This document shows, in pieces, positions 8,701 to 61,600 of a stretch of DNA of 64,000 nucleotides (within the stretch, counting starts at the first letter, position 1; the number at the start of each line of letters is the position of its first letter). Under the pieces are notes generated by a model. That model was not told the DNA's origin and made no database searches. It saw only the letters and a list, made by a program, of their open reading frames with translations. The stretch is from the NCBI GenBank assembly GCA_964016885.1, contig OZ024740.1, positions 80,724,001 to 80,788,000 of the forward strand, read 5' to 3'. The DNA comes from Eledone cirrhosa. Taxonomy: Eukaryota. A program made the position numbers and the translations under genes.

Positions 8701-11700
8701 ATCAGTCAACGCGATAAGTCGCATATTTTGGCGTGGGAGACTACTTATTAAATTTAAGATGAATACTATCTCCCACAGTAATGCCACAACTACAGCCAGG
8801 TTGAATAACTGGTTATTCTTCTAACTATCCATTCTGAAAACACCTTTTATTCTAATTCGTAGAGATATCCGACTAAATACATAATTCATTTTACAAGGAT
8901 TTGCTACAAACAGCATGATTGAACACAACATCAACAAACAAATTAAGGAAGTATCGAAGACAAATAACAAAGAAGGTAATCAAACTTTATTCAGTTGTAG
9001 CTACAGAAGAAACCGAAATTATAAATCGCATTAATTGTTATAAAATGGTAAAAAACAATCCCTCCATTGGCTATATGATTAGAATGAAGCTACACTGGGA
9101 CGAAATGCACCCAGAGCTAAATTATTTCACAGCGAAACAATTACGCCAACAAGCGACGTTTGTTGAAGGTAAAAATAAGATAAATATTATTAATTGTAAG
9201 TCCCCCACAACAAACATGGAATCAACAACACGTGCCACAGATCGCCATGCTACTAGACTTCCTAGCAGCCAGGTCGAACAGCGCCTTGAAACAACTATGC
9301 CTGTAAGAAACTTGACACCACCTGTAACATCTAAGTCTACCTCGAATGCTGGGGAAAACACTATCGTTAATAATAATAATCGAAGAAATAATAATAATAA
9401 TCGAATAAATGTGACACCACGTATACCATCCGAGTCTACCTCGACTGTTGTGCAAAATACTATCGATAAAGATAATCAAAAGTATAAACAAGTGAAAATT
9501 TCCCTCAGACGAAATCTTCCAGAGAGAAATTAACTCATGTATAAATATCTCTCTAGCTGAACGTGTTAAAATGACAATGGTGAATAAAAAACCAAATAAT
9601 GAAATACTACGTGTTATTGACGAAATAGGGGATGAATATTTACGACGGATAAAAACCCCAACATTTTGGCAAATCAACGCCTGTTTATATGCCTTAGCAA
9701 TGACAGTGAAGCATTATCTTGGTGATAGCAGAGATATTAACAAGAACAAAACACCACCAAAAATACCATCATATATAACTAAAATAGAAAAAAAGAGTGC
9801 TGACTTACGAAAAAACATAGGACATGTGACAATGCTCCTTACATGCAAACAAACACAAAAAACCTCACTCCTCACCAACAAAAAGTGAAAAATAAAATAC
9901 AGACGATGTTTGGTAACAGCAGAACCAGAACTCTCCAATATAAGCTGATCACCCTCAAACAAGAATTGAGAGCTGTTAGCGAAAAACGCCGATACCTGAA
10001 GAAGGTAGATGAGAGCAAAATGCTTAATAAAAGATTCAGATGAAACCAAACATCAGTCTATAGAGATATGAAGGACAAAATAATAAGTGTCACTGAGGCC
10101 CCATCCCAGAAAGACATAGATTCCTTTTGGAGAAAAATATGGGGTGAAAAGAAGAATTTCAACCAAGATGCAGTGTGGCTAAGAGAAATTCGAAAGAACT
10201 ATTGCTCCTACACTACAACAAAAACATACGAAATAAGTGAGGGTACCCTTGAGACTGTGATAGGAAAGCCCCAAGATAAGAAAACACCAGGAAGAGACAT
10301 GATTATCGGCTACTGGTACAAAAAACTAATATTCTATCGGAGGTATCTTACTGACTCTGCCAACAAGTTCTTAAGGGAGATACACTTATACCAGAATGGT
10401 TGACATTAGCACAGACGTTACTGGTCCCCAAGAACAAAGACACCCACTTGGCAAAAACTACCGACCCATTGCATGCCAGAACCTGATGTATAAGATGTAT
10501 ACAGCCTGCCTGGACCTATTCCTCCAAGATCACTGTGAAAATAATAACATCATCACAGATGAACAGGCAACTGGAAAGAAAAGGGTTTGGGGATGTGCTG
10601 AACAACTCCTAATCAACAAAACTGCGATGTCGCAGGCGCGACAACTTAGGAGGAGTATGACTACAGTCTGGCTGGACTACAAGAAATTTTCAATTCTGTT
10701 CCCCACTCTTGGATGATAGAGGCCCTCCAACTTGCTAAAGTCCAAGACATTATTGTCAGAGCCATAGAGAGGCTGTCTTATTTTGGGGCTACTATCCTAA
10801 GGTTAAAGACAGAGAAGGAGGACTCTATTTTCACTGATAAAATAAAATATTGCAGGGGTATATTTCAGGGGGACAGTCTCTCTGTGATATTGTTCATCTT
10901 GTCATTAAACCCCTTGTCCTTTCTGCTCAAGAAATCTGAGGGATACATCATTGGCTCACAGGAGAACAGAAATACGAACCTAACCCATAACTTCTTTGTG
11001 GACGACCTGAAACTATATGCCAAGAACATGGATGGGATGAAGAAAAATCTTGACCTCGTTACAACGTTCTCAAAGGATATAGGAATGGAGTTTGGCAAAG
11101 ATAAATGCTCATACATGACTGTAAAGCGGGGAAAAACAACAACCCAATCTAGCAACATTGTCATCAATGGTCTAACTGTTTCACCTATATCTAATGAGGA
11201 CTGCTACAGATACCTGGAGATAGATGAGAACATATCCTATAATGGTATCTGTAATAAAGAATGCCTAACCAGGGAATACTACACCCGATTAAGAAAGATC
11301 TGGTCCTCGGAACTCTCTGTGCAAAACAAAACAGTGGTTCACAATGTGTTTGCTGTACCTGTCCTAACACCAACGTTTGGAATACTCAATTGGACGATAG
11401 ACGAAATCCGATCTACGAACCTCGAAGCGTAGGAGCCCGCTTCTCGAGCAAGTCTATCTGCATGAAACAGATAAGATCATGAGAGTTGGGAAGGAACTCC
11501 ATGAGAGATATTGCCTGTGTGATAATCAAAATCTCACACCCAGGGATGTCACTCAGCAGTATCGCAGTGAATCCATGGATAAATAACTGCATGCCTATAA
11601 GCAAAAAATCATGCATGGATATGTTGCCAGGAAGCTCCAGAGTGAGAGTAGTATAGATAAGGAAAGTAGTCTATCTTGAACCAACAACCGCTATATTGGC

Positions 11701-12610
11701 TCCCACTTTGAAGGATACGCTTTTGCAATCCAAGAACAGGAGATTAGAACGAAATACCTGATTCACAAAAGAGATAGGGATGCAGGCAAAACACCTAGAT
11801 GTGATAACAAGTGCAGACTTTGCAGAACTAACATCGAGGATATCACCCATGTCATCAGCAGCTGTCCAAAGATGTCATCGCGGTACTATCTACCTATGAG
11901 GTATAATGTAGTGGCCAAAACATTGCACAATGCAGTTCGTAAAAAAGATAGCCCCGATAATAAACACATTAAAAGCTACAACAATGTGGAAGACATCCAT
12001 GTACATAATATGAAAGAGTACTGGTGGAATGTTCCAGTAAAAACCCCAATACAATGCAGGCGTAGCAGACCAGATATTATGATATGGGACAGGGAGAAGA
12101 AAACATGCACAGTAGTGGAAATTAGCTGCCCAGCAGATACCAATATAATATCAAAGATTAGTGAAAAGGAGAATATTTATGCAGAACTGATGAGAAATCT
12201 GCAGATACTCCACCCTGATTACACATTCAGATTTATGCCTGTGATTATTGGGGCATTGGATTATGTTAGTAACTGCCTCAATACAAATCGTGAGAAGATA
12301 GGCTTCACAGGAACAGAAAGAACACAACTAGTTAGGAAACTACAAGTACAGTCCATTAATGGAACAGTAAAATTATGTAAAACATTCCAAAAATGTTGCA
12401 TCTAATAACTGCATATACACATGTACAGATACAAAGTATATACACATGCACACATATAACTCAAAACATACACATACACACATACAATAACATCCATATC
12501 TACACATGCATGCATACATACATATCTACCTAGTTGATGTTGTTTAAATTCCAATGAGAGAGTCTTGTGTCTATGTTAGAAACCGACTTAGGATAGTAGC
12601 CCAAGAAGAA
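8700..12610 (+). mobile_element. Near full-length R4/Dong-clade non-LTR retrotransposon (RT + CCHC + restriction-like endonuclease)
   Basis: Single long decayed ORF with R4-type N-terminus, RT and C-terminal RLE; 5' UTR starts at (TACA)n; 3' UTR about 12405-12610. Confidence 0.9.
8914..12405 (+). pseudogene. R4-like ORF: N-terminal domain, reverse transcriptase, zinc knuckle, RLE; multiple frameshifts, stops and a deletion near 11.41 kb
   Basis: GYMIRMKLHWDEMHP; KTPGRD; NYRPIAC; WLDYKK; GIFQGDSLS; FVDDLKLYA; CRLC..EDITHVISSC (manual); RPDIMIWD..VVEISCP..EK..Y. Confidence 0.92.
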
Positions 12611-14328
12611 GACAACCTCTCTATGGCTCTGACAATAAAGTGGGTGTCTTTGTTCTTGGGGACCAGTAACGTCTGTGCTAATGTCAACCATTCTGGTATA
12701 AGTGTATCGCCCTCAGAACTTGTTGGTAGAGGTCAGTAAGATACCTCCGATAGAATATTAGTTTTTTGTACCAGTAGCCAACAATCATGTCTCTTCCTGG
12801 TGTTTTCTTATCTTGGAGTTTTCCTATCACAGTCTCAAGGGTACCCTAACTTATTTCGTATGTTTTTGTTGTAGTGTAGGAGCAATAGTTCTTTCGAATT
12901 TCTCTTAGCCACACTGCATCTTGGTTGAAATTCTTCTTTTCACCCCATATTTTTTCCAAAAGGAATCTATGTCTTTCTGGGATGGGGCCTAAGTGACACT
13001 TATTATTTTGTCCTTCATATCTCTATAGACTGATGTTTGGTTTCGTCTGAATCTTTTATTAAGCATTTTCCTCTCATCTACCTTCTTCAGGTATCGGCGT
13101 TTTTCGCTAACAGCTCTCAATTCTTGTTTGAGGGTGATCAGCTTATATTGGAGAGTTCTGGTTCTGCTGTTACCAAACATCATCTCTATTTGATTTTTCA
13201 CTCTTTGTTGGTGAGGAGTGAGTTTTTTTGTGTGTTTGTTTGCATGTAAGGAGCATTGTCACATGTCCTATGTTTTTACGTAGGTCAGACCTTTTTCTTT
13301 TCTATTTTAGTTATATATGATGGTATTTTTGGTGGTGTTTTGTTCTTGTTAATATCTCTGCTATCACCAAGATAATGCTTCACTGTCATTGCTAAGGCAT
13401 ATAAACAGGCGTTGATTTGCCAAAATGTTGGGGTTTTTATCCGTCGTAAATATTCATCCCCTATTTCGTCAATAACACGTAGTATTTCATTATTTGGTTT
13501 TTTATTCACCATTGTCATTTTAACACGTTCAGCCAGAGAGATATTTATACATGAGTTAATTTCTCTCTGGAAGATTTCGTTGAGGGAAATTTTCAATTGT
13601 TTATACTTTTGATTATCATTATCGATAGTATTTTGCACAACAGTCGAGGTAGACTCGGATGGTATACGTGGTGTCACATTTATCGATTATTATTATTATT
13701 TCTTCGATTATTATTATTAACGATAGTGTTTTCCCCAGCATTCGAGGTAGACTTAGATGGTACAGGTGGTGTCATGTTTCTTGCAGGCATAGTTGTTTCA
13801 AGGCGCTGTTCGACCTGGCTGCTAGGAAGTCTAGTAGCATGGCGATCTGTGGCACGTGTTGTTGATTCCATGTTTGTTGTGGGGGACTTACAATTAATAA
13901 TATTTATCTTATTTTTACGTTCAACAAACGTCGCTTGTTGGCGTAATTGTTTCGCTGTGAAATAATTTAGCTCTGGGTGTATTTCGTCCCAGTGTAGCTT
14001 CATTCTAATCATATAGCCAATGGAGGGATTGTTTTTTGCCATTTCATAACAATTAAATAAATCAATATTAAGTTCGCAACTCCAAGAGAAATGCGATTTA
14101 TAATTTCGGTTTCTTCTGTAGCTACAACTGAATAAAGTTTGATTACCATCTTTGTTATTTGTCTTCGATACTTTCTTAATTTTTTTGTTGATGTTGTGTT
14201 CAGCCATGCTGTTTATAGCAAATCCTTGTAAAATGAATTATGTATTTAGTCGGATAGCTCTACGAATTAGAATAAAAGGTGTCTTCAGAAGGGATAGTTA
14301 GAAGAATAACCAGTTATTCAACCTGGCT
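12611..14328 (-). mobile_element. Second, 3'-truncated copy of the same R4-like LINE, inverted
   Basis: Reverse complement matches about 8792-10450 then jumps to about 10751-10778; 5' end abuts (TATG)n at 14329-14385. Confidence 0.92.
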
Positions 14329-14589
14329 TTATGTATGTATGTATGTATGTATGTATGTATGTATGTATGTATGTATGTATGTATATATATAAAGAATGAA
14401 TAATAACAGGTAGACATCATAAAAAGGTAATTTATTCCGTGTGCTTACAAATGTTTCCACGGTGGTACTACAGCCTAGTTATGCTATGTACAAATTTACA
14501 AGTATTTGCAGAACTCAAATATCCAATGCTGTGACCACTGTATCCTCAGAGCAGAATGGTACAAATTAGTACAAAACTATCTCTACAAA

Positions 14590-15303
14590 ACTATCGATTA
14601 GTACAAATCTATCTCTTTCATTCTTTAAGTTAATCAACAAACATTTCCCTAGTTCCCATAAATACAGCAACATTCTGAACTCTAAAACTATAAGCCTATC
14701 ATACTGAACGGCACCAAACCTTGAAGCATACATAAAAAAACTTAACTTAAGGCAATTTAACAACTCTACAAAACAAAACATTTTAGTAACAGATGGGCAG
14801 AACGTAATATCTGCCTCCCAACCACTAAATGGGAGACGGGTATTACACAATCCATCTGTACCGCTATCACAACCTATCCATGGTACACCCGCTACCCACG
14901 ATGTCCATTGAAGAATGAATGCCTAAAGTCCAACATTGTTTACCAATGCACGGTTGTATCGAACGACCAGAAATGGTATTATATCGGATCTACCACCACC
15001 TCGTTTAAATCTCGCTGGTACCGTCATCGATTCTCAATCAAACATCCTAATCACCGTTTTGTGACCACGCTCGCCAACAAGACCTGGCAACTCCGTGAAC
15101 GCAACCAACAGTTCACCTTAAAATGGGATATACTTTCCAGCGCAAGTGCATATCGGAGTGGATTGAAGTACTGCAGTTTATGTAACCTTGAACTCTTTTA
15201 CATATTAAAATCCAAAAACAAACTACTAAACGATAGAATTGAACGATCATTATACTGCAACCACAAACTAAAAGCTAAATTCTCTCACTATAAAATAACT
15301 TAA
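14590..15303 (+). pseudogene. Naiad-type thumb remnant + GIY-YIG endonuclease
   Basis: KHFPSSHKY..SY*TAPNL; CPLKNECLKSNIVYQC..YYIGSTTTSFKSRWYRH..TTLANKTW..CSLCNLE..LLN..CNH. Confidence 0.88.
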
Positions 15304-27692: not shown

Positions 27693-28158
27693 AATTATGG
27701 TTCATAACTATTTTTACTCTACGAAAGGAGGAGTCGTTTGCATGGAGACGCCTTTCTAATGTCTTGAAATTATCTTCCCTTCTAATACAAATTCACTATT
27801 AATTATATTTGCACTCACCCGGTTATATTATTGGCGCGCTCACTCAAACACACACACATACACACTTACACACTTACACACTTACACACACATATATATG
27901 TAAGCATAACTGTGTATCATTTGATCAGAACTATATAGTCATACAGAAATTGATGGTTTATTTTGCCTAAATCTATTTATTACTTCATCGTTTCTATTGG
28001 AACGATAAATATTCATTTATTTGCCATTCAGACAATTAATACTTTATTAATATATTCTTGAAGACATATATACCGATATATATATATATATACTCTTTTA
28101 CTCTTTTACCTGTTGCAGCCATCCGGCTGAGGCCATGCTGGGGCACCATATATATATG

Positions 28159-28192
<34 letters not shown>

Positions 28193-28197
<5 letters not shown>

Positions 28198-28803
28198 CTG
28201 TCTGACCGGCAACCACTCTGTATAATCAGTTCCTGATTATTACTAGAATTCTATAAGAATCAAACATTCATGATTTTCAGCAAACAGGTGGAGTACTTGG
28301 CTCTGATATTTACCAATCAGTACGAAACAGAGCTCTGTCAGTTTTATCTCCCCTGTTTGCTGAAAATTTAAAGTAAGTGAGACTGCTACTACTCTAAAAC
28401 AATAGCGTAAGGTCTTCGAAATGCTTTTAATTAAGCATACAGTGTATTGCGAAATACACTATATATACATTCATATATATATCGCTATTTCAGAGCACCA
28501 ATTGTAATTTTCAATTTCTGCCTGACCGGCAACCGCTCTGTATAATCAGTTCCTGATTATTACTAGAATTCTATAAGAATCAAACATTCATGAATTTCAG
28601 CAAACAGGTGGAGTATTTGGCTTTGATAAGTACCAATCAGTACGAAACAGAGCTCTGTCAGCTTTATCTCCCCTGTTTGCTGAAAATATAAAGTAAGTGT
28701 GACTGTCACTACACTAAAACAATAGCGTAAGGTCTTCGAAATGCTTTTAATTAAGCATACAGTGTATTGCAAAATACACTATATATACATTCATATATAT
28801 ATA
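28193..28803 (+). repeat. Tandem pair of 320-bp non-coding monomers, each with a hammerhead (retrozyme-like)
   Basis: ctgaccggcaacc at 28202 and 28522; hammerheads at 28299-28343 (degenerate core) and 28619-28663. Confidence 0.8.
28619..28663 (+). ncRNA. Hammerhead with U3-A8 core and palindromic stem III
   Basis: ggct-TTGATAA-gtac caatca gtac-GAAA-cagagctct-GTC-agct. Confidence 0.75.
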
Positions 28804-29712
28804 ATATTAAGGATACTATTTATAGTTATGTATATTTTAAACTTTTTATAGTTATGTATATGTTAAAATATAAACAGGGAAGGTCAGTAATTTATTACTA
28901 CCTTATTACCAGTAAGATAAATAGCTCAATGTAATAATATCAGTTGTTCTACAGAGCAGTTATATAGAATTCACAAGAATCAAAGCTACGCTCAAAGCAT
29001 TTATTCACTTACAATTGTTTCATCCAAACCTAGGCTTGGTGTCTTCGGAGCATTTTTCAATGTTTGTACATATAATTGACTTCCTATCCAATGCAGGAGA
29101 CATACAGATACATATATATATATATATATTGATGTACAGTGGAGTGTCATATATTATACTATACTATATTTATACAGCAATTCAAATTTAAAACCAAAAT
29201 CAAAATTAAAATTAAAATTAAAATACATGCGGCAGATAACACAGATAATGTAAAGAGATAGTTTGATAATCAGATCTAGTAGATAGTGTATGCGTTAGTC
29301 ACACATGGAGCATGCAAGTGTGTCTCATTTATATACGATTATTGTGTGGCAAGGTGTTACATGTAATGAAAGCACTTTAAGCGGGTAAGCAAGAGTATTA
29401 TGGTGGTTGTAGTGGTGGGGTATTTTTTGTATAGATCAAAAATGTATGTGTGCAGAAAAATAAAAAGAAAAAGAAAAAGAAAAAGAAAAAGAAAAAGAAA
29501 AAGAAAGTTATAGTTTTCGCATCCACCACCATTTTCACATTCAGAAAAAGTAAGTGATAGTTTTTACATCCATCACATAAGCTAAATTTGAATTGCTGTA
29601 CAAATATAGTATAGTATAATATATGTCACTCCACTGTACATCAATATATATATCTATATGTATGTCTCCTGCTTTGGATAGGAAGTCAATTATATGTACA
29701 AACATTGAAAAA

Positions 29713-29759
29713 TGCTCCGAAGACACCAAGCCTAGGTTTGGATGAAACAATTGTAAGTG
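29713..29759 (+). ncRNA. Hammerhead with C3-C4 (U4C) core in the Naiad pLTR
   Basis: tgct-CCGAAGA-caccaagcc ta ggtttggat-GAAA-caatt-GTA-agtg. Confidence 0.62.
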
Positions 29760-30008
29760 AATAAATGCTTTGAACATAGCTTTGATTCTTGTGAATTCTA
29801 TATAACTGCTCTGTGGAACAACTGATGTTATTACATTGAGCTATTTATCATACTTGTAATAAGGTAGTAATAAATTACTGACCTTCCCTGTTTATATTTT
29901 AAAATATTCATAACTATAAAAAGTTAAAAATATACATAACTATAAATAGTATCCTTAATATTGTTAACTGCTCCATACTGTTGAGCTAACATACATTAAA
30001 TTACCAGT

Positions 30009-32400
30009 ATGCTGATCAAAGACCAACTTCCTATGTCAACTAAGAACATACCAATACCATCCAAAGATACATACGAAAAATTATTGATCAATAGTGTCAA
30101 CTCCTTTATCAATAGAGTGAGATGGAGGACATTGCATTATGATAAAAACAGATCTAACAAAATTGATGATACTAACAAATTCGACTCCTTCGGTTTTAAA
30201 ACTTTTAGAAGTCCCCCTCACAACACACTACTAAACTCCTTTGAAAATGACCTAATAAAACTAGTTAATAACATTAAATACAAAAAGCATCGTAATAGAA
30301 ACAACACCTACTTAAACTAACTTAACTCCTCTATTAATGGATTCAAAACAAGTAGTAAAATGATTGTGCACACGGACAAAACTAATAACATATATAGCCT
30401 GGATTATGATACATATAGAACATTTATATATAATGAACTACAGAGGATCTACAAGAAAACTACTATGAAAAACCTAGAAGATATTAATTAATTTGGAAGG
30501 CCGTAATATAGTGTCCAAACTGGAACTTCAGAGACATGCACAACCATAAAACCCGAACCCCGAAGATTTTCTCTGAAGGACCATAAGGAGGATTTCATTA
30601 GTAACCCTTCGATTAGACTAATCTGCCCTTCCAAGTCTGACATTGGCATTATCAGTAAAAAAAAATTAGATAAAATCATCCCACGGATTAAACACAAAAT
30701 ATACCTTAAACAGTGGGGAAATACGGGTGAAGTTATTGAATGGTTTAAGGATATCAAAGGACATCATCTACTCAAAAATTTATTCAGTTTGATATCAATT
30801 CATACTACACCTCTATTTCCCCTATCCTATTAAATAAGGCACTAATTATGGCCATGAACAATAGTGACCTGACTAGACCCCAGATTGATGTCATACTTGC
30901 GGCCCGTAAAACCGTAATCACATTTGAAGATCAGTTATGGACCCGCAAGGATACGCATAACAACTTTGACATAACCATGGGATCTAGTGACTCGGCGCAG
31001 TTCACTGATTTGGTGGGCCTATACCTACTAAACGAAATCCATAAGGACCTACCATACCTCAACGGTGGTTTGTACCGCGATGATGCACTACTCCTTATAG
31101 ACTATAACAAATTTAATACAGAAAGAACTAGGAAACTATTGCATAAGACTTTCAAAAACTATAACCTAAGTATCACCATAGACAAAAACACTAAAAACGT
31201 TAACTTCCTTGATGCCACCCTTTACTTAGACTCTAAAATATAAACACCAGTCCATACACCTAACGAAAAACTAATTTACGTAGATACCAAGTATAACCAC
31301 CCTAGATCAATATTAAACTCTATCTCTAAACGAATATCCAATAGAATCTCTAATCTATCTTATGACGAAACCATATTCAGCAAAAACTCACAATACTATA
31401 ATCAGGCATTAGGTAGATCAGGCGATAATAATGAGATCGAGTTTCTACCTATAAAAACACATAGTTACAGCATTATTTCTCACAATATGTCCCTGAGGAC
31501 ACACACTAATACGAAGGGTAGCAACAAACGTAACTCACACCAGAGAAGACACCAAAATACTATAAACGGAACACCTGAACAGATATAAAAAACAAAAATA
31601 GAAGAACTAATACATTTTTCAACCGCCCTTTCAATCTAAACGTCTCTACCAATCTACCTAAGGCTTTCTTCTCACTCCTGGATAACAACTTCCCACCTGG
31701 CCACAAGTACCATAGTCTTATAAATAAAAACACCATTAAAATCACCTACTCTACCACGCCTAACATAGCATACCACATTGCTAGTAGCAATAAAAGAAAG
31801 TTTAATACTTACTTTCAACAAACTAAAACACAGCAGGGGGTAAACTTTCAAAACAACGTAATATCTGCAAACCCTGATATCAATACTAATAATAGTAATA
31901 ACACTAATGAAATCAATAACATTGGGAGCGACAACCCCCATAGCCATAATGCAATACCTAGCAACCGGACTTCTACAAAATATAATAACCGACAGGTTAA
32001 CATCCAAAATAATTGTAACTGTAGATCTAACAGAACTTGCCCTTTATGTAAAAACTGCTTAATCAAGGACATCATCTACTCATGCTCGGTCAGAACTAGC
32101 AACTCTTCTGAAACCTAAATAGGCTCTACTTCGAACTGCTTCAAAACCAGATACAATTCACATCTCCATTCTTTCAAAAAACACACTTCACTATCTAGCT
32201 ACTTACACTATCTGAAAACTAGAAATAAATCATATACACTTCAATGGGAAATGATAGGTAAGGCGCCATCGTGCAGACCACCTAATACATTCTGTAACCT
32301 CTGTCTACTAGAGATCCATACTATAATCTTTTCGAACCTTAACCTCCTTAATAAAAAAAATCAGAAGTGTTTGCCAGCACCGCTTCCGGCACTCCTTCCA
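30009..32400 (+). pseudogene. Naiad-type PLE ORF (RT + thumb + GIY-YIG), several stops and frameshifts
   Basis: KNIPIPS..FINRVRW..FGFK..PP; DKTNNIY; LKDHK..RLICPSKS; FDITMGSSDSA..LYRDDAL; CNCRSNRTCPL; C.LCLLE. Confidence 0.92.
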
Positions 32401-33944
32401 AAACTGTAAACCCAATATATAACAATGTCAGACTTGAACCCATCACCGCTTCTAACACCACACCTCAAGGGCATACCTTACACTACTACACCACACTCTC
32501 TGATCCACCCTTCCCCCGACACAAATCATTCTATCTATGACTATATACCCTAGAAATATCCCCATCAACACCAACTTTTAATATAATTACTTTCAATTAT
32601 TTATAATTATATAGGGATAGAAATATAATACAGTCTATAGAAACTTTAAATACTAGATACGGCAGAGAATTATATATGCAATTGTAATTAAATGTATGGA
32701 GTAATAACATTAGATAAATATGGGATTAATTTATTAACATAAGGGATCTGTCTAACTTATATGTAGGGTGGTGCAATGGATTATATATGAATTATATATG
32801 CATGTATAACTTGATGGATGGATTAATGACATTGTAAATGAGGGATGTATTTGTCTACACAAGAGATGTATTTGATTTTGTCATGCAAACAGCCTTACGC
32901 TGCTCCATAACTTACCAGGGGTTATGTAGACAAAATTCTAATAGGTCCTCTGATATGTTTTGAAAGTAGACTGTATTTACAGTGAACTTTGATATAAAGA
33001 TATGGCACTTTGTATGGGAAATTCAATTATAGCACTATATAATAAAGAGTAATCAACTTCCTATAGATACCTTTAATACATTATGATAGAGTAGACTGTA
33101 TTTAAAATTGAAAATTAGATATAAATATATAACCTTTTATAAGGGACTCACTTGAGGCACCATATAATGTATGTTAGAACAATGAATTTAGTTATGAGAA
33201 TCAACTAGTTACCCCCCCCCCCCCCCCTTACGCATTTACTCCCCTTAATTACACACCTACTTCCGGGTAATAAACCACTGTAAATTCTCGCAGCAGAAAG
33301 AATGTATTCTATAAATATGGATTAAATAACACTGAGCCTCAATACGCTACAATAATTTAATGCATCAACCATTCAAAACGGAATCATCGTAACTTATGTG
33401 ATGGATGTAAAAACTATCACTTCCTTTTTCTGAATGTGAAAATGATGGTGGATGCGAAAACTGTAACTTTCTTTTTATTTTTATTTTTATTTTTCTGCAC
33501 ACATACTTTTTTGATCTATACAAAAAATACCCTACCACTACAACCACCATAATACTCTTTCTTACCCGCTTAAAGTGCTTGCATTACATGTAACACCTTG
33601 CCACACAATAATCGCATATACATGAGACACACTTGCATGCTCCATGTTTGACTAACGCATACACTATCTACTAGATCTGATTATCAAACTATCCCCTTAC
33701 ATTATCTGTGTTATCTGCCGCATGTATTTTAATTTTAATTTTAATTTTGATTTTAAATTTGAATTGCAGTACAAATATAGTATAGTATAATATATATCAA
33801 TATATATATAAGTATCTGTATGTCTCCTGCGTTGGATAGGAAGTCAATTATATGTACAAACATTGGAAAATGCTCCGAAGACACCAAGCTTAGGTTTGGA
33901 TGAAACAATTGTAAGTGAATATAGCTTTGATTCTTGTGAATTCT

Positions 33945-35444
33945 ATATATATATATATACTATAAAGCCGACGGCCGTATGTAGGTAACAAACTCTCCGC
34001 CAAACGGCTGGACCAAAAGCACCAAATTTGCACCATAGATGTAACTTTTTCCAAGTAAAAAAGTGAGCGTATTTTCGTCTACTGAATTTTGTTAAAAGAT
34101 TAAAGACATTATTTAAATATTCACTTCTTTGACATTTTCAAATGTCAACAGTTCCGGTTATACGACATTCCTAACGTCTTCACGAACCAAAGTATCATCT
34201 TCCTGATTTCTTTCGGTTGCAACGTTTTTCGAAATCTTTACTTCTGCGTTCACAGATTGATTTTTTTAGAAAACCCAGTTAGGGGTGAAAGCAGCGATTC
34301 GTTGCTTAAACTTCAATCTGCATACACAAAAACAAAATATAAACAAACGTATTTATTTCACGAAAGCACAGACAGCTTAGCGTCATTGATACTGCCGATA
34401 TGCCACCCAAAAGGTACTAGCCTGGCCGCAAGATCAGATTTTTCAGAAGAAAAAATGTTACTAGAGCAACAGAGAGACTAAGCTTCGCGATTACAATCAA
34501 CAAAGCTCAGGGTCAAACCCTAAAAGTGGCTGGCCATGGTCAATTGTATGTAGGATGCTCTAGTGTGAGCTCGCCAAACAATCTCTTCATCTTTGCTCCC
34601 GAGAGCCGAACAAAAACATATTGTATACCGTGTGGCTCTAACAATGTAATTTATGTATTTTCTGTTACTTGGAATTTCCATTATGGTTGTACAAATTATT
34701 GTAAAGTTTGTTAAAAAAGTTGTTCTCTGTTCAACCTTTATTGTTGTAACTATCAATTTTCTATAGCGTACTGGCTGAGAAAAGAAACCTTAAACTTTAC
34801 CCAAGCCAAATATTGTATTTATTAACATTTCTATCTGCAGGATCTTAGCAAGCTTACTGGCGCTTTAGTATGGTATTCAATTCTCATATCGTTTTTTATT
34901 GATATAGTGCTTATATCGCAGCTATTCATATGTTTTAAACATTAGATAACGATTGCTGATGTATATTGTACGACAGAATTAGCTGAAAAATATTTTGAAT
35001 GAACAAATAAAAGAGATGTAAAAGAGAGATGTTTGTTGGTTGGTTCCTTCGCGTATCACACGAAAAAACCGAAAAGTGACAATCGGAAAGTATGTACAGG
35101 ATTAGGATAAGAGTATATCCAGGAACGTTTATTGATACTAATTTTATAACACCAAAGAAGAAGAAAGACATACCACGTATGCTAACCAACCTGACTGCTA
35201 TTTCTAGCAGGTTGGGAATCAACCATAAGGGATTCTCTCTGCGAGTTCGTTGTCAGTGATGATCGTGTTTCGCGGCCTATGTCTCCAATTCCAACGGGGG
35301 TTTACACACATACACACTCACACACACACTCACACACACTCACACACGAACAATCACACAGACACAGACACATATACATAAATGTATATACACACACACG
35401 CTCACACACACTCACACACACATACCCACGAACACTCACACAGG

Positions 35445-36855: not shown

Positions 36856-39800
36856 TATATTGAAAGGATAACAAGGACGATTGATTACTCCTTCATTGCA
36901 TTTATTGATAGGTGACGCGCGTTTCGCCACTGATCAGCTCAAGGTTCGATCTATATCGATCTAGCCCGACTCTGTAATCAAGGTTCAATCTGTATCGATC
37001 CTACCCGACTTAATAATCGGCAGCTCGACGGACCCTCTCAAAATGCTATAAGAAAATGAACTACATGCTATGTGGTAAAGTCAGAGTTTCAAGAGTTTGA
37101 CAAAATGAGTTGTTTTGATTGGTGGGAAGGATCAAGGGGATGTACTGGCCTGTAGTAAATATTGGGGTGGATGTGATGGTGAGATGTTGGTGACGGTCGG
37201 TAGATGAGATGGGCTGTGGTGTGGTACCATACACACCCGCAACCCTATGTTCCCTACGACTACCCTAACCTACTACCCCACGCTAAATCCGACTCTGTAA
37301 ATCTACTGTCGCGCGCACACACAACCACCGCCACCACTAGATACATCCACATACTTCAACAATCATTAACATCATTAACATCATCAACAAATATCATCCC
37401 TCACTCCCAGATCGACTGTATTATATACGCCCCCCCCCCCCGTCTGCCTTACACTGTAACACACCGTAACTTCTGATCATGTAATCATCTTGTCGAACAT
37501 ATCACCCCAGCACCACCACCACCACCATGACCACAACACACATCGCCATACGTCCATAAACTCTTCTCCCCTGCGTTGCCTATGTCACCTTTTAACCTGT
37601 AACCCATCGCACTATTCGATCCTGTATATTTTTGTCGCTCACGACTCCACCACCACCACCATTACAAGACACAACTTCATACTTCATCAACACCGCCAAC
37701 ACATACCTCCACCCCCGACCCAACGCAAGTGTGTGTGTCTGTGTGTAAGTATTTTTTACATATACGGGAGTATAAATATGCGTGCGTGTACGAATATTTA
37801 TATATATATATGTGTGTGCACATAAATATATATATATATATCTGTTAGAACACGAAAAGTGTGAAACAACAGAATGTTCACTTTTCGTGTTCTAACATAT
37901 ATGCGTAGCTTCTTAAAAAATTTTTCGGGGATAGCCGTGGTGGTGGTGATCGTATGTCATTGGCTAATTTTCAACCAATCAGAGTACCTCTCTCTATATC
38001 TCTTCCACTGTTACTTACGCCTGTTTCTCTCTATCTGTTCCGTCTCTATATATATCTCTTACTCTTTCGCTTTGCACTCCTCCCCTTCAATACCATCTCT
38101 CCCCCTCTCTATATATTTGTTACTCTATCGCTGCACGCTCCTCTCCTTCAATATATCAATTACACACGCTTTACACTCCTTTATCCCCAGCGCCCCTATA
38201 TATACACCCCCCTCTCCCGCATCTATATTTTAATGTACCGTTGCACCGTGAATATATGTGTCTATATATATATATACATATATATTGTATATACACATTC
38301 ATGTATGTGTATACACACTCATGTATGTATATACACTGGTTTTATGTGTGTATTGTAAATTTGTACTGTTAAAACACGAAACTAACATTCGATTGACACT
38401 TTGATTACCTGTACAGGCAATAGTTATTAGAATGCTGTTGAAGTGTGTATATATTTTTGGGGGACATCCTGTATATACACACATTATATATAATACAATA
38501 AACAGATAAATACACACATATATATATGAGCTTATTTAATTATAAATATTGGGAATTTTTAACTCAGTTCAATTATATATATAAATGGTTTCTACAGGAC
38601 TAGAACTGTTTCATTCGAAAGAAATCATCATAATATTGAGAGGGGGGACTAGATAAAATATTTCAAATCAAATGTGTATAAGTTATAAGTTAAAATGTAT
38701 AAATAGAGTATGTGTGCGCGTATATGTGCATGTATGTGTATGTGTGTGTAGGTGTATGTGTGTGTATATATATGTGTGTGTATACGTGTGTGTGTGTGTA
38801 TATATGTGTATGTTTTGTATACGTGTGTGTGCATGTATGTGCCCATATCCGTATGTGTGTATTAATCTATGTATGTGTATGTATATATGTATAACACCTT
38901 CTCCATTGCCTCTCACCTTCCCTCCATCGTTGTCCTGCGCCACCCCCACCGATACTCCCCCACTCTCCATATTTGTGTCCGCATGCGCGCATGCACATAC
39001 ATGTGTGTATATATACATATGGCTGTGTATGCACGTGTGTCGATATGTGTGGGCGAGGGTGTGCGTATATCTTTTGTGTGTGTTTATACATCAATATATG
39101 TGCGCATATATACATATGTGTGTGTGTATACATATATACAACGTATTTGTTAGACGAAGACCGTCTAGCTATGTATCTCCGTAAGGACTTGACAACACCA
39201 ACACATCCACCACACCAGCACAAACGCCACCACCATAAACAAGAACACCACAACCACACCCCCACACACGCCAAACCGTCTACCGACAATCCACTAACCT
39301 CACACCACAGCCCATCCCAGTAAGCGACCATAACCACCATCATATCATCACATCCACCCCACATACTCTACAGGCCAAGGCCAACCCACCACCACCACAC
39401 CACAGCCCATCTCATCCACCGACCGTCACCAACATCTCACCATCACATCCACCCCCATATACACTACAGGCCACTACATCCCATTGATCCTTCCCACCAA
39501 TCAAAACAACTCATTTTGTAAAACTCTTGAAACTCTGACTTTACCACATAGCATGTATTTCATTTTCTTATAGCATTTTAAGAGGGTCCGTCGAGCTGCC
39601 GATTATTAAGTCGGGTAGGATCGATACAGATCGAACCTTGATCTGATCAGTGGCGAAACGCGCGCCACCTATCAATAAATGCAATGAAGGAGTAATCAAT
39701 CGTCCTTGTTATCCTTTCAATATATTACAATCTGTATAGCTCTACACCTCATCACAAAAGTGAACCTAAACATCGAGTGCTCTCCCGGTGAACCTGCAGT

Positions 39801-39864
39801 AACTCTTAGTTACACTCCCTGGATATTTAGCTCCTTTCTTTGTCGAGCGCTTACCTGGAACACC

Positions 39865-42345
39865 ATGGAATTGTTCTACAATACTTCCTCCCTAAATGAC
39901 ATTCCTATACCCTCGAAAGATGTCTACATGGACCTATTACTAAAGCAGACTAATAATTTCATCAGGAGGATCCGTTGGAGGGCCTACCACTACAACAACA
40001 GGAGGGCCCCTGGATCAATTGACAATCCCACCAACCACATAAAAAGACTTTTTAAATCAACGAAAAACCCACCGCACAACCCACTCGTAGAGGGGTTTGA
40101 GAGTAGGATCATTACCATGGTCCGGACAATTAGATTCAGGAAACATCGCGAAACCCTGACAGAAGTGCATTCCTGTCTGGGCTCGCCTCAACCTTAAAAA
40201 AGATCAAGAATAGCACAGGAATTATCGTACCAGCCGATAAAACAGGAAACCTATGCAATTTGGAGTACAAAACCTACAACAAATGCATTACAAACGAAAT
40301 CGCTAAAATATACAAAACATCAACACGAGAAAAACCTAGCACACATAAACAAACAGGCCAAAACAATAATGACCGAACTGACAGGCCCTATCCTTACAAC
40401 CCTAGGACACCGAGACTATTCTTTAAAGACCATAAACCGGACTTCCAGTTAAACCTACCGGTCAGGCTCATAGCCCCTTCCAAATCGGACCTAGGTAGAC
40501 TTAGCAAATCAATCATTGACCGAATTATACCTGAACTTAGAAATAGAACTAAACTCAGCCTATGGTCTTGTACAAAGGAGGTAATCGATTGTTTTTGTGC
40601 CATTGAAACTAAGTCGAATGTTCGATTAGTCCAATTGGACATTACGAACTACTACGCATCTATATCCCCAATCATCCTTAACAAGGCACTGATCTCAGCC
40701 ATGAACAGATCAAGCCTCATTAGAAAGGAAGTGGACATAATAATAACAGCTAGGAAAACTTTACTAGAATTCGACGGAAGTTTGTGGGAACGACAGAATA
40801 GACCAGATAGCTTCGACATCACTATGGGATCGACTTGCTCCGCACAGGTTACAGATATAGTAGGCATATACCTCCTTAATATATTAAAAGACGAGATCCC
40901 CTCCTTGGGCGGTGGCTTATACCGGGATGATGCCCTACTATTGACCCGTGGACTCAATAATAGCCAATTAAATAGACTACACAATCGACTTAGGTACAAC
41001 TTTAAGACCCAAGGTTTAGCAGTAGAAATTGAACCTAACAATATGACAGTTAACTATTTAGATGTCACCCTAGAATTAGACTCAGGCCTCTACCGTCCAT
41101 ACCACAAAATTAATGAAAATCTTAAATACGTCAACAGACACTCCAACCAACCGAAGAAGCATAATTAACTCAATAGTTAAAAGCGTCTCCTATAGAGTGT
41201 CCACCCTGTCGGCTAATGAAAACATCTTCAAGCAGCACGCGGAATACTACAACTCCGCACTTATAAACGCTGGTTATACTGAGAAGATTTCTTACATCGA
41301 CCCACATAGAACCGTAACACCACTAAACATAACCGGAACCTTAGAAACGAACATAGAAGAAATCTCCACACCTAGGACAAACAATAACCTAAGACCCTCC
41401 CTAGCCGGCAGTGCAGACAGCGCCACACTTGACTGTCTAGGAGATAAAGCCATACTCTCCAACCCCAATAACGACTCCGACTATCGCACACGTTTGCATA
41501 CTAATAGAGACAAAATACATAACGCCAATAGCTTACTTGGAACCACTATGACACATACGCCTGACCAAACCACACGCAAACTACCACCCAACCACAGAAA
41601 CCTCACTAAACACCGCAGAAACCGAAGTAGACCTGTCACATGGTATTCTATACACGTCGCCACTAACATACCGGGAACCTTCTTCAGGGCTCTCGAAAAT
41701 CTTTTCTACGCACACACAAATACCACAAGCTCTTCAATAGACACACCGTAACATTCTCTTTCTCCACAGCACCAAACCTAGGCCACACAATAGCACACAC
41801 TAATAGGGCAAACATACGGAAACACATGGTTTCCCACAACAAACCACCACCACAACCCAGAACGAAACCAGTCACACAACACAACACAACACAACAACCC
41901 AAACACCACACACACACCGCATAACACCAACCGCCAACGTGCCACCACACCGGTTACACCCAACTGCAACTGCAAAAAACGGGCCGAATGCCCACTAAAC
42001 GGGGAGTGCCTCGTTAAGAATATTGTTTACCGGTGTGATGTCACAGCCGGCAATAAGGAGTACTCATATATAGGTGCGACATCCACTACGTTTAAGGAGC
42101 GCTGGTATAACCACAGAAGCTCCTTCAAACATAGACTGAAACGACCCCAAACCAGACTGATCTGGGACCTCAAGGACAGGAATATTGAACCCCAGATTTC
42201 GTGGTCAGTGAAAAGACGCGTGACACATATCCCCAGAGACAGAAACCACTGCAGATTATGCCTGGCTGGGGAAATAAATAAATAAAAATCGGCCATAAAC
42301 TATAGGTCGGACATAATTGTCAATTGCCGACACACCAGGCTGAAC
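39865..42345 (+). pseudogene. Naiad-type PLE ORF (RT + thumb + GIY-YIG), frameshifted
   Basis: DIPIPSKD..FIRRIRWRA; ADKTGNL; FKDHKP..RLIAPSKS; QLDITNYY; FDITMGS..LYRDDAL..VNYLDVTL; CNCKKRAECPLNGECL..YIGATSTTFKERWYNH..CRLC. Confidence 0.92.
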
Positions 42346-52457: not shown

Positions 52458-52515
<58 letters not shown>

Positions 52516-52628
52516 AGTTGAAAAAAATGAAAACGAAATTTCATTTCTCACTCTTAGTATGGCACTTACTTAAATGTAAGTATGTATGTATACGTACATA
52601 TATATATGTATACAGACGTACAGTAGCA

Positions 52629-52668
<40 letters not shown>

Positions 52669-52842
52669 TATAGACATATGCATACAGGTACACATACATA
52701 TATGCACGCATCAGTTTAGCCGACGTTTATTATAACGCCTGCTTTGTTCGTTTGTTTGTCAACAAATCGAACAACCTGAATTTATGCCATACGGTGTTAA
52801 GGCAACCACGTCACCTTTTTTTGTTCAACACTGACACAGGAA

Positions 52843-52883
52843 CGATGTACTAGTTTCAAGCTTGTTAGCTATCATCAGCACCG
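52843..52883 (-). ncRNA. Minimal type-I hammerhead ribozyme
   Basis: Reverse complement reads cggtg-CTGATGA-tagc taacaa gctt-GAAA-cta-GTA-catcg. Confidence 0.82.
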
Positions 52884-53327
52884 TTTACCCATCTGTCAGA
52901 TAGTTGAACGTTCGAAAGTATATACTTTCCTTATGAAAATTAACGGCTGAGCAGCCCAATTTGCATATTGAGTGAGTTAAATCGGTCAGGCATACCGAAA
53001 ACGATAAGTTGAAAAAAATGAAAACGAAATTTCATTTCTCACTCTTAGTATGGCACTTACTTAAATGTAAGTATGTATGTATACGTACATACATATATGT
53101 ATACAGACGTACAGTAGCATGCATATATATATATATATATATATACATATATATATACACATATGCATACAGGTACACATACATATATGTACGCATCAGT
53201 TTAGCCGACGTTTATTATAACGCCTGCTTTGTTCGTTTGTTTGTCAACAAATCGAACAGCCTGAATTTATGCCATACGGTGTTAAGGCAACCACGTCACC
53301 TTTTTTTGTTCAACACTGACACAGGAA

Positions 53328-53368
53328 CGATGTACTAGTTTCAAGTTTGTTAGCTATCATCAGCACCG
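53328..53368 (-). ncRNA. Minimal type-I hammerhead ribozyme (second monomer; one stem II mismatch)
   Basis: Same motif as 52843-52883. Confidence 0.75.
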
Positions 53369-53478
53369 TTTACCCATCTGTCAGATAGTTGAACGTTCGA
53401 AAGTATATACTTTCCTTATGAAAATTAACGGCTGAGCAGCCCAATTTGCATATTGAGTGAGTTAAATTGGTCAGGCAT

Positions 53479-53531
<53 letters not shown>

Positions 53532-58690: not shown

Positions 58691-61600
58691 CTATAAAACC
58701 TCCTTGTACACAATGTTTTTCGTTTTACGTTGTGGAACGAACGCGAAAGCATCACTCTTGCTGCAAACACGCAAGCAGCCAACGTGAAGCTGACCATGAG
58801 AGAAACATGGCTCCCCCAAATGTATTCCCGCCACAGACAGTGTTTGACCCTGCGCTTTGTTAATTGACATAGCGAAACATGGCCTTACTGGGAACTGGGA
58901 CCTCCGAAATGTGAAAGGTAGGTCTGCTCTTGATGGGAAAAGATGCATCCTAGGTATGAGCACAACGTTGCCTCGACCGCACCCTGTAATAATCGTGGCC
59001 TCAATCAGATTGGGAGATAAAGACTTAACGATCAAACGTGTGCCATTGCATTGTTTCGGGGGAACCAAATTTCTAATGAGCATTATAGGGGCACCAACTT
59101 GAAGTTTGAGAATGTGTGGTGGTAGTCCGGGGGGCTCAAAGGAATTGAGTACCTCTATTGGATAGTTGATGACGTCCTCTTGGTCAGGAGTTGTATCGAT
59201 AGACTAATATACATAGCCATCCCCAGGAATGAGGTTTAGCATTTGATCATTAATATGGTGAACAGTTTTATTCCTCGAGGCCAGAATAGCCCTTTGGCCA
59301 ATCCAATCCATATTCTGATAATTAGCTTGTAGATCTAGGAACACTGCATCTGTGAGATCAGAAGGCGTATTAACAATGGTACAAATGGAATCGATGGCAA
59401 TATTACCATTTTCATCCCCGGTTGTTTTGCCTTCGCCAAGTGCAAGGAGGGTGTGAGAAAATGCTGCTGATGTGATATCACGTCGCATATGAGCACGCAT
59501 GTTAGTGTTAAGTTTGAGAGTGTTCACCAGTGGCCACAATGTGGATGACTTAAGACACGCACTTACTGCATCAGCTCTAGTCCCTTTGGGAATAACGGGA
59601 AGTGTTTGCCGGAAGTCCCCTGAAAGAAGAAGTGTTATGCCTCCCATGGGAGCTGTAGAGTGTTTGATGTCTCTGAGAGATATATCTAGTGCCTCAAGAG
59701 CACCTCTGTGGGCCATCGTGCATTCATCCCAAACGATAAGCTTGCATCGTCTGAAGACTTCTGCCTGATCGGAGCTGTTACTGATGTTGCAAGTTGGTGT
59801 CTCAGTCTTCGCTAAGTCAAGCGGGAGCTTGAAAGTGGAGTGAGCTGTCCTGCCGCCTGGCAACAAAGTAGCCGCAATTCCAGATGATGCCACAGCTAGG
59901 GCAATGCCTTGTGTTCGCCTAATCTCAGTCAATATTAATTTGTTGACAAAAGTTTTCCCAGTGCCCCCAGGAGCGAAAAAAATCCCCCAGATTTGGCCCG
60001 GACTGAATTAACAACGGAGTTGTAAGCGAACTTCTGTTCTGGAAGTAGCTTTGGCTCATTCTCAGCTATGTACTGTGCAAGCTCGTCAACATTAAAACAT
60101 GTTTCACGCAGCAAATCTGAAAACAGTGTGTTTGTGCGTTCCCAGTTTGTTGAAGGTAGGCCATATACCGCCAAGGCACTACCGCCCATATCAAGTACAG
60201 TATCTTCGATTTCAAGCAGCGCCCTGTTGTAAATGAGGTCACTGTACCCGACCTCTATTGATGGATGTAGCCATTGAGCGTGACGCAGGAAATCTTCAGA
60301 CATATAATCTTTGTAGGTAAGCCATAAAGAGGCGGGATCAGCCAAGTCACACCATAGGAGTAGAATAGCGAAAAGCGATCTGATTTTTTTAGGAGATTTT
60401 AACGAAACACCCTCCATATAGTGGTGCCCCCATTGTGAATCATCCTCCAAAAGGCCACGCCGAAAGCAGGCTTCGCGGAAAGTATCACATAATACACTGT
60501 CAACAGTTGTGATGTCTTGAAAACTTAGTGGGCCTAAAACCTCATGGAGTAGAAGGCGCAGGTGAAAACACTCGTGTTGGTTTGGAGGTATAGTGTACAC
60601 TCTTCCTAGACAACTGTTAAACTTGACACCAGGATGTCCTTCAACATCCTGACCCGACTTCCTACGCACTCAATTGTTGTTTGACCACACATAGTAGGAC
60701 GGGACCTGAGGGTATAAAAGTGTTTTGGCAAATGTGTCAATTTGGCAAAGCCTAAAGAAACCGGTCAAAGTTGTTTGTTTTGGATTTGCCACCAATTGAA
60801 CAGCAGTCTGTTCAGTAAAGTAAGCTCGCTGGCCAATTTCCAAATGAACCGCTAGTTGTATGATGGCGGGGTGCCTTTGGTGAAGCGGAAAGCCGAATAT
60901 CCGCCAAAAAGCTTCACCACTGCTTATGTATCGACCTGCCATGTACTCCGACACCTCGTCCATGCTATTGTCCTTTTGAAGGCCGAACATGGCAGCGTCA
61001 GAACCCTTGTTAACATATTTACATATATACTTTATACACTTTACTGAATGACAGAACTCCACATTTATGTGAGCGTTAAAAGTTTTCATCAGAAATAGAC
61101 AGTACTGGACTACCCACCCATTATCCACTTGATGACCCCGTAACGACATAGTGAATCCACCATTGTCAGGGTGCCTTCGTCTGTACAGTGGGTATCCGTC
61201 GCGGCCGGTCTGGGTCTCCTCCAGGAACCTATTTGGGTATCGTTTAGTACACACATGGTCTTTGTAGCACGAGGAGAACTTTTGAAAACCGGGACCGCAC
61301 GGACCGTGCACCATGTGTGCCTTCACAATGTCGTACAGCTGCCGGTCAACAGTTGGGTCCGGGATTTCTGCTGCGATGATGTCATCAAGAACTGTCGGGT
61401 CTATTTTGTTGACCAACCAAAGCAAAATGTGCGCGTGTAGTATCCCTCTTTTCTGCCACTCAACAGTATACATGTGGCACTTAACAGACCCCAAAACCTG
61501 CCCTTTTTTTTTATTAAATCAATGAGCTTAGCGAGCTTCTGCCTGAAAACCCTTGCAATAATATCATGGCGATGGCAGTACTGCTGCCTTGGGATAAGTT

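What the first reader, a model, noticed from the sequence alone, without database searches (positions are those of the whole stretch)
28193..28803. Second retrozyme-like tandem (320-bp period) with a U3-A8 variant hammerhead
Seen: two 320-bp-period repeats unrelated in sequence to the 485-bp family. Unit 2 has ggcu-UUGAUAA-guac/guac-GAAA-cagagcucuGUC-agcu with a 12-nt palindromic stem III (ACAGAGCUCUGU). Unit 1 has a damaged core (CUGAUAU). The pair abuts a full Naiad-type PLE that could supply RT in trans (inference). Two independent candidate retrozyme families within 25 kb is notable.
Basis: partly seen in the sequence, partly recalled or inferred. Interest (0 to 1): 0.78.

Follow-up and report, generated by a model that had tools for sequence, protein, structure and literature searches.

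The report
Mobile RNA circle with swapped ribozyme
This is one copy of a young, widely scattered 320-base repeat that carries a predicted self-cutting RNA (hammerhead) with a swapped core base pair; its insertion footprints suggest it is copied from an RNA circle by the enzyme of a Neptune-type Penelope-like retroelement, and related copies show that the same core swap happened twice.

Summary
28193-28802 is a 320-bp tandem (1.9 units, 95%) in (TA)n. Unit 2 has a full type I hammerhead with U3-A8; unit 1 is decayed.

U3-A8 is the family state: 386 of 389 exact core matches in the genome, none C3-G8. Copies are dispersed. In 61 position-picked loci, 93 of 110 arms end at two fixed points about 28 nt apart. 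5' ends scatter round the unit, 78 of 81 long-enough arms run through the cleavage site, and none is joined to an ORF. This fits a non-LTR retrozyme copied from a circle by a Penelope-like enzyme (inferred).

Sister subfamilies have C3-G8. A tree needs two independent core swaps, and the stems covary.

It is broken, although intact 832-aa relatives exist elsewhere. The perfect palindrome is in only 30 of 95 motifs. This locus itself likely cannot release a circle.

Retrozymes and U3-A8 are both published. Cleavage, circular RNA and the mobiliser's identity are untested.

The parts
28148..28193 (.). (TA)n tract at the 5' side, the insertion target
   Evidence: TRF row 28148-28193; sequence
28193..28512 (+). 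Unit 1, one full 320-bp turn; hammerhead decayed (C at 28303 facing A8, A9U 28309, G10.1U 28310, stem I change 28342)
28513..28802 (+). Unit 2, ends at the family's first fixed 3' end (unit position about 290)
28595..28684 (+). Type I hammerhead domain of unit 2: long stem I with internal loop, core UUGAUAA 28623-28629 (U3-A8), stem II GUAC-CAAUCA-GUAC 28630-28643, GAAA 28644-28647, stem III 28647-28658, predicted cut after C17 at 28659
28460..28508 (+). Internal TATATATACATTCATATATATAT tract and the 26-30-nt tail ending ...CTAAT; these are the two 3' insertion ends of the family (unit positions about 290 and 316-319)
28803..29584 (-). Inverted pLTR arm of the neighbouring Neptune-type element, with its own minimal hammerhead (CCGAAGA at 29048); not part of the retrozyme
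29583..33949 (+). Neighbouring Neptune-type Penelope-like element: upstream partial pLTR (hammerhead 29717), broken ORF about 30000-32364 (three frames, 5 stops), 3' pLTR (hammerhead 33875); context only

Best explanation
The tandem is one decayed copy of a dispersed, non-coding 320-bp repeat family whose hammerhead core is fixed as U3-A8, and it is likely a non-LTR retrozyme that spreads through a predicted RNA circle copied by the reverse transcriptase of a Neptune-type Penelope-like element. Shown: the copy structure, the two fixed 3' ends in (TA)n, scattered 5' ends, read-through of the cleavage site, back-to-back inverted arms, no attached ORF, stem covariation, and two core swaps on the tree. 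Inferred mechanism: (1) a locus with two or more intact units is transcribed; (2) neighbouring hammerheads cut, probably as a double hammerhead through the near-palindromic stem III, while the monomer is predicted to fold into a locked inactive form; (3) the monomer is ligated to a circle; (4) a Neptune-type endonuclease nicks (TA)n and the RT primes about 140 or 170 nt downstream of the cut site, probably helped by the internal AU tract, then copies round the circle for up to 3.2 turns; (5) the second strand primes about 28 nt away, which gives the inverted arm with the extra tail. This locus has one intact ribozyme, so it likely cannot release a monomer.
For: Multicopy: 1689 first-look candidates, 40 scored, top 30 at 96-100%; 389 exact core matches. 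386 of 389 are U3-A8 and 0 are C3-G8. In 61 position-picked loci (110 arms), 51 arms end at unit position 286-296, 42 at 311-5, and 17 elsewhere. 72 of these 93 are followed by a TA run. 23 of 28 classifiable back-to-back pairs combine one end of each kind (binomial p=0.0004). 5' ends are uniform round the unit (chi-square p=0.25; 6 near the cut site, 6.1 expected). 78 of 81 arms long enough pass the cut site; 41 of 93 exceed 320 bp and 5 exceed 640 bp. Inverted arm plus one-sided tail plus microsatellite target is the described Penelope-like footprint (PMC8557442, passages). Arms of one locus share non-majority variants four times more often than arms of different loci (0.70% against 0.18% of sites). 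Of 346 motif hits in all fetched loci (duplicates included), 7 had a same-strand PLE ORF piece within 2.2 kb upstream; they were different families at different distances with no shared junction. Across 21 rows of 7 subfamilies, 94.8% of cells pair and 10 of 25 pairs change on both sides; slid controls give 33-48%. A tree without the ribozyme hairpin rejects one U3-A8 clade (AU p about 1e-71; p=0.0004 with only positions 3 and 8 masked). Unit 2 cofolds as a complete double hammerhead (-90.7 against 2 x -38.4 kcal/mol). U3-A8 is reported as active in vitro and natural (PMC3088659, passages). An intact, very young Neptune-type lineage is present.
Against: Self-cleavage, circular RNA and expression were not measured. 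In PMID-less preprint 10.64898/2026.07.22.740005 only 1 of 9 predicted dimers cleaved. Genomic copies show no selection on the core after insertion (2.4% against 3.3% deviation); the evidence for function comes from subfamily-level covariation, which is not independent across related rows. The unit has no significant similarity to either Neptune-type pLTR tested (best scores within or near the shuffle range). Their tails are about 165 and 140 nt, not about 28, so the mobiliser is not identified. The double-hammerhead fold was the predicted optimum for only some subfamilies (intermolecular stem III probability 0.99, 0.62, 0.99, 0.99 in four rows; 0.03, 0.24, 0.00, 0.07 in four). Rfam gave no hammerhead hit on unit 2 at E<=10. 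Only 61 of 389 or more family-A places were examined structurally.
Confidence: 0.78

Rival explanations
1. The family is a non-autonomous Penelope-dependent element copied from linear, uncut tandem transcripts or by template jumping on a linear monomer; the hammerhead is kept for another step, such as 5' release, and no circle is involved.
For: Read-through of the cut site would also follow from uncut multimers, and loci with 3 or more units exist (L050, L129). The monomer is predicted to be locked, so cleavage may be slow. Penelope-like elements form partial tandems without a proven circle (PMC8557442).
Against: 5' truncation on a linear template can only shorten arrays, yet the lineage persisted through 22% change, which needs multimers to be regenerated. 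There is no excess of 5' ends at the cut site, where a jump would start. Circles are the main form in tested animal retrozymes (PMC7229834, sections read).
Confidence: 0.12
2. The unit is the solo pseudo-LTR of a coding Penelope-like element whose full-length copies are rare.
For: It has the same insertion footprint as PLE ends. Animal retrozymes are often related to pLTRs (10.64898/2026.07.22.740005). The proximal stem I GCU/AGC and terminal ...CTAAT recur in Neptune-type pLTRs here. Most copies were not examined.
Against: Upstream of position 1 the copies continue into position 320 of the same unit, an inverted arm or unrelated DNA. No shared ORF junction was seen. A long-stem-II pattern search gave 29 hits, all clan variants, Neptune-1 pLTRs or one stray.
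Confidence: 0.07
3. It is a satellite-like or MITE-like DNA repeat spread at DNA level, and the hammerhead is a relic.
For: Many loci look like inverted-repeat elements (44 of 61 have arms on both strands). No RNA evidence is in hand.
Against: The arms are unequal and end at two different fixed points. 5' ends are random, as in reverse transcription. Stems and the 3-8 pair covary between subfamilies.
Confidence: 0.03

Closest known systems
Animal non-LTR retrozymes (coral, mussel, axolotl; PMC7229834, two of six parts plus passages read; 10.64898/2026.07.22.740005, parts 1-3 of 5 read)
   Same: About 300-bp low-GC head-to-tail unit, one type I hammerhead per unit with an extended stem I, non-coding, mostly monomers to trimers, living beside Penelope-like elements that are the proposed mobiliser.
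   Different: The core is U3-A8 rather than C3-G8. Copies are dispersed single insertions with back-to-back inverted arms and two fixed 3' ends; 'inverted' and 'microsatellite' do not occur in the main text of PMC7229834. Cleavage and circles were not tested here.
U3-A8 hammerheads: Schistosoma mansoni Cercyon PLE minimal hammerheads, about 1,300 hits (PMC4209133, parts 1-2 of 4 read); natural U3-A8 examples (PMC3088659, passages)
   Same: The same compensatory swap of the 3-8 core pair.
   Different: Here it sits in a canonical-type hammerhead with a real stem III inside a retrozyme, and sister subfamilies record two separate swaps.
Neptune/Nematis-type Penelope-like elements (PMC8557442, passages)
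   Same: Microsatellite target, inverted 5'-truncated arm, tail at one end only, hammerhead near the 3' end.
   Different: The 320-bp unit has no ORF, closes on itself, and shows no significant similarity to the two Neptune-type pLTRs tested.

Membership tests
Animal non-LTR retrozyme | Head-to-tail repeat unit of about 150-450 bp, GC under 50% | tested here: met
   320-bp period; GC 0.31 over 28001-29000; arrays up to 1030 bp
Animal non-LTR retrozyme | Type I hammerhead in the unit (family level) | tested here: met
   All core positions in 127-139 of 132-143 segments; covariation; core is the U3-A8 variant
Animal non-LTR retrozyme | 'Active' locus: two consecutive units with complete hammerheads (definition of 10.64898/2026.07.22.740005) | tested here: not met
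   At this locus unit 1 is damaged. Other loci do meet it, e.g. L019 and L021. This lowers the claim for the locus, not the family.
Animal non-LTR retrozyme | Non-coding and not attached to a coding element | tested here: met
   No ORF of 150 aa or more over the tandem; no shared ORF junction in sampled loci; sample only
Animal non-LTR retrozyme | Self-cleavage in vitro | not testable with these tools
   Needs a bench assay
Animal non-LTR retrozyme | Expressed as unit-length circular RNA | not testable with these tools
   Needs RNA data from this organism; see Tried and rejected
Animal non-LTR retrozyme | Target-site duplication | tested here: inconclusive
   Ends lie in (TA)n, so duplications cannot be read
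Type I hammerhead (Rfam RF00163) | Reaches the gathering score | tested here: not met
   No hit on unit 2 at E<=10; a C3-G8 sister copy scored 14.6 bits against 34. The model misses this clan; the core and helices are shown directly.
Naiad PLE (neighbour) | GIY-YIG endonuclease N-terminal to RT | tested here: not met
   The intact relative P0001 has the RT (YRDD) at about 370 and the endonuclease motif at about 710-730, read by eye; the neighbour is colinear
Naiad PLE (neighbour) | No canonical hammerhead in the pLTR | tested here: not met
   Minimal hammerhead-like motif with CCGAAGA at 29717, 33875, 29048
Neptune PLE (neighbour) | RT, Cys-rich linker, C-terminal GIY-YIG | tested here: met
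   CNCRANRTCPLDKKCL linker before VIY...YVG in P0001. Pfam gave no RT or GIY-YIG hit on P0001 and only weak GIY-YIG hits on two related pieces, so the motif reading rests on recalled motifs.
Neptune PLE (neighbour) | RT groups with Neptune rather than Nematis in a reference tree | not tested
   No reference PLE proteins were fetched

The most novel reading that the evidence does not exclude
This genome holds a dated fossil series of one RNA-circle lineage. In it the hammerhead's C3-G8 pair flipped to U3-A8 twice, once possibly through a mismatched C3-A8 stage that still transposed, to loosen a self-lock between the core and stem III. The insertion ends mark exactly where a Neptune-type enzyme primes on the circle. 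With intact Neptune-type elements in the same genome, this would be a ready system to prove who mobilises animal retrozymes and to watch a ribozyme core cross a fitness valley.
Probability: 0.25. Interest if true: 0.72.

Novelty: new variant of a known kind. Interest (0 to 1): 0.48.

Why it matters
Two steps in the animal retrozyme life cycle are still hypotheses in the papers read: that a Penelope-like RT is the mobiliser, and that the circle is the template. Here the copies carry the Penelope-type footprint in numbers. Priming is fixed away from the cut site, 78 of 81 arms read through it, and the tail is one-sided. A very young intact Neptune-type lineage lives in the same genome, so both steps can be tested directly. 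The subfamily ladder also gives natural C3-G8, U3-A8, U3-G8 and C3-A8 ribozymes on one backbone. Searches tied to CUGANGA or to Rfam miss such families, so retrozyme counts are probably too low. The locus itself is a dead copy.

Tried and rejected
RNA evidence: no RNA holder listed. The four listed runs have no library record, and X4's depth profile follows X1's across 12.5 kb, so nothing is concluded about expression. Rfam on the whole window gave only microsatellite-driven hits. A shared tail or pLTR homology with the neighbour's lineage was not significant: best 2 of 200 shuffles, a TA-rich match, among ten comparisons. With the second Neptune-type family the best was 11 of 200 among twelve. 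No pLTR was recovered for the third family at 39688-42285. Wobble-intermediate idea: U3-G8 copies (27) are not in excess over C3-A8 copies (45), so no propagating U3-G8 stage is seen. C3-A8 as a propagating stage in subfamily D is unresolved. About 14 copies carry it and both arms of L341 do, but the arms of L346 disagree, the tree does not group them, and C3-G8 copies of D were not counted. RNA-to-RNA replication: subfamily majorities differ by up to 22% while copies lie 2-6% from their own majority. The coding Neptune-type lineage shows a similar excess (8.5% between majorities, copies 0.1-3.8% from their own), so this does not single out the retrozyme. The first tree needed one swap because my filter dropped subfamily E; include it. 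Literature: four hammerhead-variant or taxon searches and two retrozyme searches listed no paper on this family. 'Octopus' was my guess from composition and is unverified. PMC1986816 (3-8 exchange kinetics) is not held, and supplements of the 2026 preprint are closed and of the others unread, so a listing of this family or of U3-A8 retrozymes there cannot be excluded. Earlier scan notes: three look-ups were empty.

Full report
Observation. TRF reports a 320-bp period, 1.9 copies, 95% matches at 28193-28802, flanked by (TA)n. A strict scan of both strands finds a type I hammerhead in unit 2 with core UUGAUAA at 28623, a 4-bp stem II, GAAA, the palindrome ACAGAGCUCUGU and a predicted cut after 28659. 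A long outer stem I closes the domain (z -6.3). Unit 1 has C at position 3 facing A8, plus A9U and G10.1U. Rfam does not see the motif.

Family. The window lies in a 3.0-Gb genome. The unit gave 1689 first-look candidates, of which 40 were scored; these are not copy numbers. A 30-nt pattern allowing C or U at 3 and G or A at 8 matched 389 times, control 0, and all 100 listed were U3-A8. The C3-G8 pattern with one mismatch found only one U3-G8 and two C3-A8 copies, so 386 of 389 are U3-A8. Copies lie 2.7% from the column majority (199 segments, 86 loci). The perfect palindrome is a minority state, 30 of 95 motifs, against 28 ACAUAG and 9 ACACAG.

Insertion footprint. I took 61 loci from the first 100 listed pattern matches: 21 supplied and 40 fetched. 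The window's own locus, seven loci already fetched by similarity and nine later loci on contig 2 were left out. Of 110 arms, 51 end at unit position 286-296, 42 at 311-5 and 17 elsewhere; 72 of the 93 run into a TA tract. Of 38 back-to-back inverted pairs, 28 had both ends classifiable and 23 of these pair one end of each kind (p=0.0004). 5' ends are uniform round the unit. Of 81 arms long enough to reach the cut site, 78 pass it and 3 stop within 10 nt. 41 of 93 exceed one turn and the longest array is 1030 bp. Arms of one locus share private variants four times more often than arms of different loci, as expected if one template gave both. An inverted 5'-truncated arm, a 30-40-bp tail at one end and microsatellite targets are described for Penelope-like elements (PMC8557442, passages). 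Priming far from the cut site with free read-through fits a circular template; uncut multimers or template jumps are the rival.

Not a pLTR, in the sample. Upstream of position 1 the copies continue into position 320, an inverted arm or unrelated DNA. Of 346 motif hits in all fetched loci, duplicates included, 7 had a same-strand PLE ORF piece within 2.2 kb upstream. They belong to different families, and none shares a junction; in L075 an arm abuts a truncated endonuclease.

The neighbour. 29583-33949 is a Penelope-like element with an inverted pLTR arm at 28803-29584. Its relatives include dozens of open 832-aa frames; eight fetched copies differ by 5-18 of 2496 bases. The order is RT, Cys linker, GIY-YIG, read from motifs by eye because Pfam gave no relevant hit. 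The pLTRs carry a minimal hammerhead with CCGAAGA. Naiads have the reverse order and lack canonical hammerheads (PMC8557442), so this is Neptune-type; Nematis was not excluded. The window copy lies in three frames with 5 stops. Its nearest relatives differ by 2.4%, roughly the age of family A, so the lineage was active then. But the unit shows no significant similarity to this or a second Neptune-type pLTR, and their tails are about 165 and 140 nt. Only short terminal motifs recur (...CTAAT and ...TTCATATA or TTTATATA), which is suggestive and untested.

Lineage. Diverged copies near family-A loci led to sister subfamilies with C3-G8: B (1991 candidates) and 311 matches with position 7 other than G. 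Copies chosen by core pattern form a ladder A-C-M1-M2-B-D-E with nearly additive distances, 16% in the backbone and 22% overall from A to E. A second U3-A8 subfamily, E, made up roughly half of 109 matches and sits at the opposite end. With positions 3 and 8 masked the tree needs two changes and rejects one U3-A8 clade (59 rows, p-AU 0.0004). With the whole ribozyme hairpin removed it still rejects it (68 of 163 rows, thinned at random). The root is unknown. M2 copies are the most diverged (4.8-5.8%, but heterogeneous) and the tips the least, which favours two gains. In 21 rows, 94.8% of cells pair, 10 of 25 pairs change on both sides, and slid controls give 33-48%; rows are related, so this is not a probability. 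The ribozyme domain changed faster than the backbone between subfamilies (0.19 against 0.08 for B-E).

Folding. Secondary-structure prediction, which ignores tertiary contacts, puts most monomers in a locked form in which positions 3-5 pair with the 5' strand of stem III (probability 0.70-0.99 in C3 subfamilies, 0.97 in family A with the perfect palindrome, 0.56 in the ACAUAG variant, 0.02 in E). U3 weakens this lock in sporadic M2 copies (0.01 against 0.96). Unit 2 cofolds with itself as a complete double hammerhead, but four of eight rows tested do not. A locked monomer and an active dimer is the classical scheme (PMC4209133); here it is a prediction.

Known context. Non-LTR retrozymes with type I hammerheads are expressed as circles in coral, mussel and axolotl, and Penelope-like elements are the proposed, unproven mobiliser (PMC7229834). 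A 2026 preprint links them to pLTRs and found cleavage in 1 of 9 dimers. U3-A8 is known from Schistosoma PLE hammerheads (PMC4209133) and other natural examples, with activity reported in vitro (PMC3088659). My searches listed no paper on this family or on repeated swaps within one lineage; supplements were not seen.

Verdict. A real retrozyme-type family, a new variant of a known kind; this locus is likely a dead dimer. Its value lies in the footprint statistics and the natural series of core variants. Interest 0.48.

Noticed in passing
window 27342 (-), 16434 (+), 54201 (+), 54145 (-): A second, unrelated hammerhead-like family with a U3-A8 core (UUGAAAA, stem II gcagaagaacugc, stem III ccgg). 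It forms back-to-back arms in (TA)n with two 3' ends about 65 nt apart; 31 motif hits in fetched loci, parent not found.
   Followed up: partly
window 29717 (+), 33875 (+), 29048 (-), 23566 (-); L194-L201: The Neptune-type pLTR hammerhead has U4C (CCGAAGA), also in all eight young intact copies; 7 copies with CUGAAGA were listed.
   Followed up: partly
L194-L201 and one search list: A very young Neptune-type subfamily with dozens of open 832-aa frames under 1% apart, probably still active; its lineage changed about 10% since the window copy's subfamily.
   Followed up: partly
L265-L269, L272 (relatives of window 14591-15300): A second Neptune-type family whose pLTR hammerhead-like motif (CUGAGGA ... 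GAAA cacuug UA) has an insert of about 80 nt in stem II.
   Followed up: partly
window 52513-53483, minus strand, about 52845-52880: The 485-bp repeat has a canonical CUGAUGA core on the minus strand with stem III cuag and a U-U mismatch at the base of stem II; 25 related motif hits in fetched loci.
   Followed up: partly
window 17766 (+), 55774 (-), 57606 (+), 53743 (-), 57045 (+): Further minimal hammerhead-like motifs; the one at 57045 lies 292 bp behind an endonuclease piece of the other Penelope-like family (898-2154 type).
   Followed up: no
L330, L335-L347: About 14 subfamily-D copies have a mismatched C3-A8 core, in both arms of L341; possibly a propagating intermediate on the way to subfamily E, unresolved.
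   Followed up: partly
L075, about 1900-2100: A subfamily-B arm abuts a Neptune-type fragment cut inside its endonuclease; a template switch or a later deletion.
   Followed up: partly
window 58691-63177 (-): Broken frames that look like a Helitron Rep/helicase gene; the label is recalled from motifs, not tested.
   Followed up: no
window 8791-12405 (+), inverted partial copy 12638-14331: A non-LTR retrotransposon remnant with an RVT_1 hit (E 1.5e-13) and a 1.7-kb inverted duplicate at 95%.
   Followed up: no
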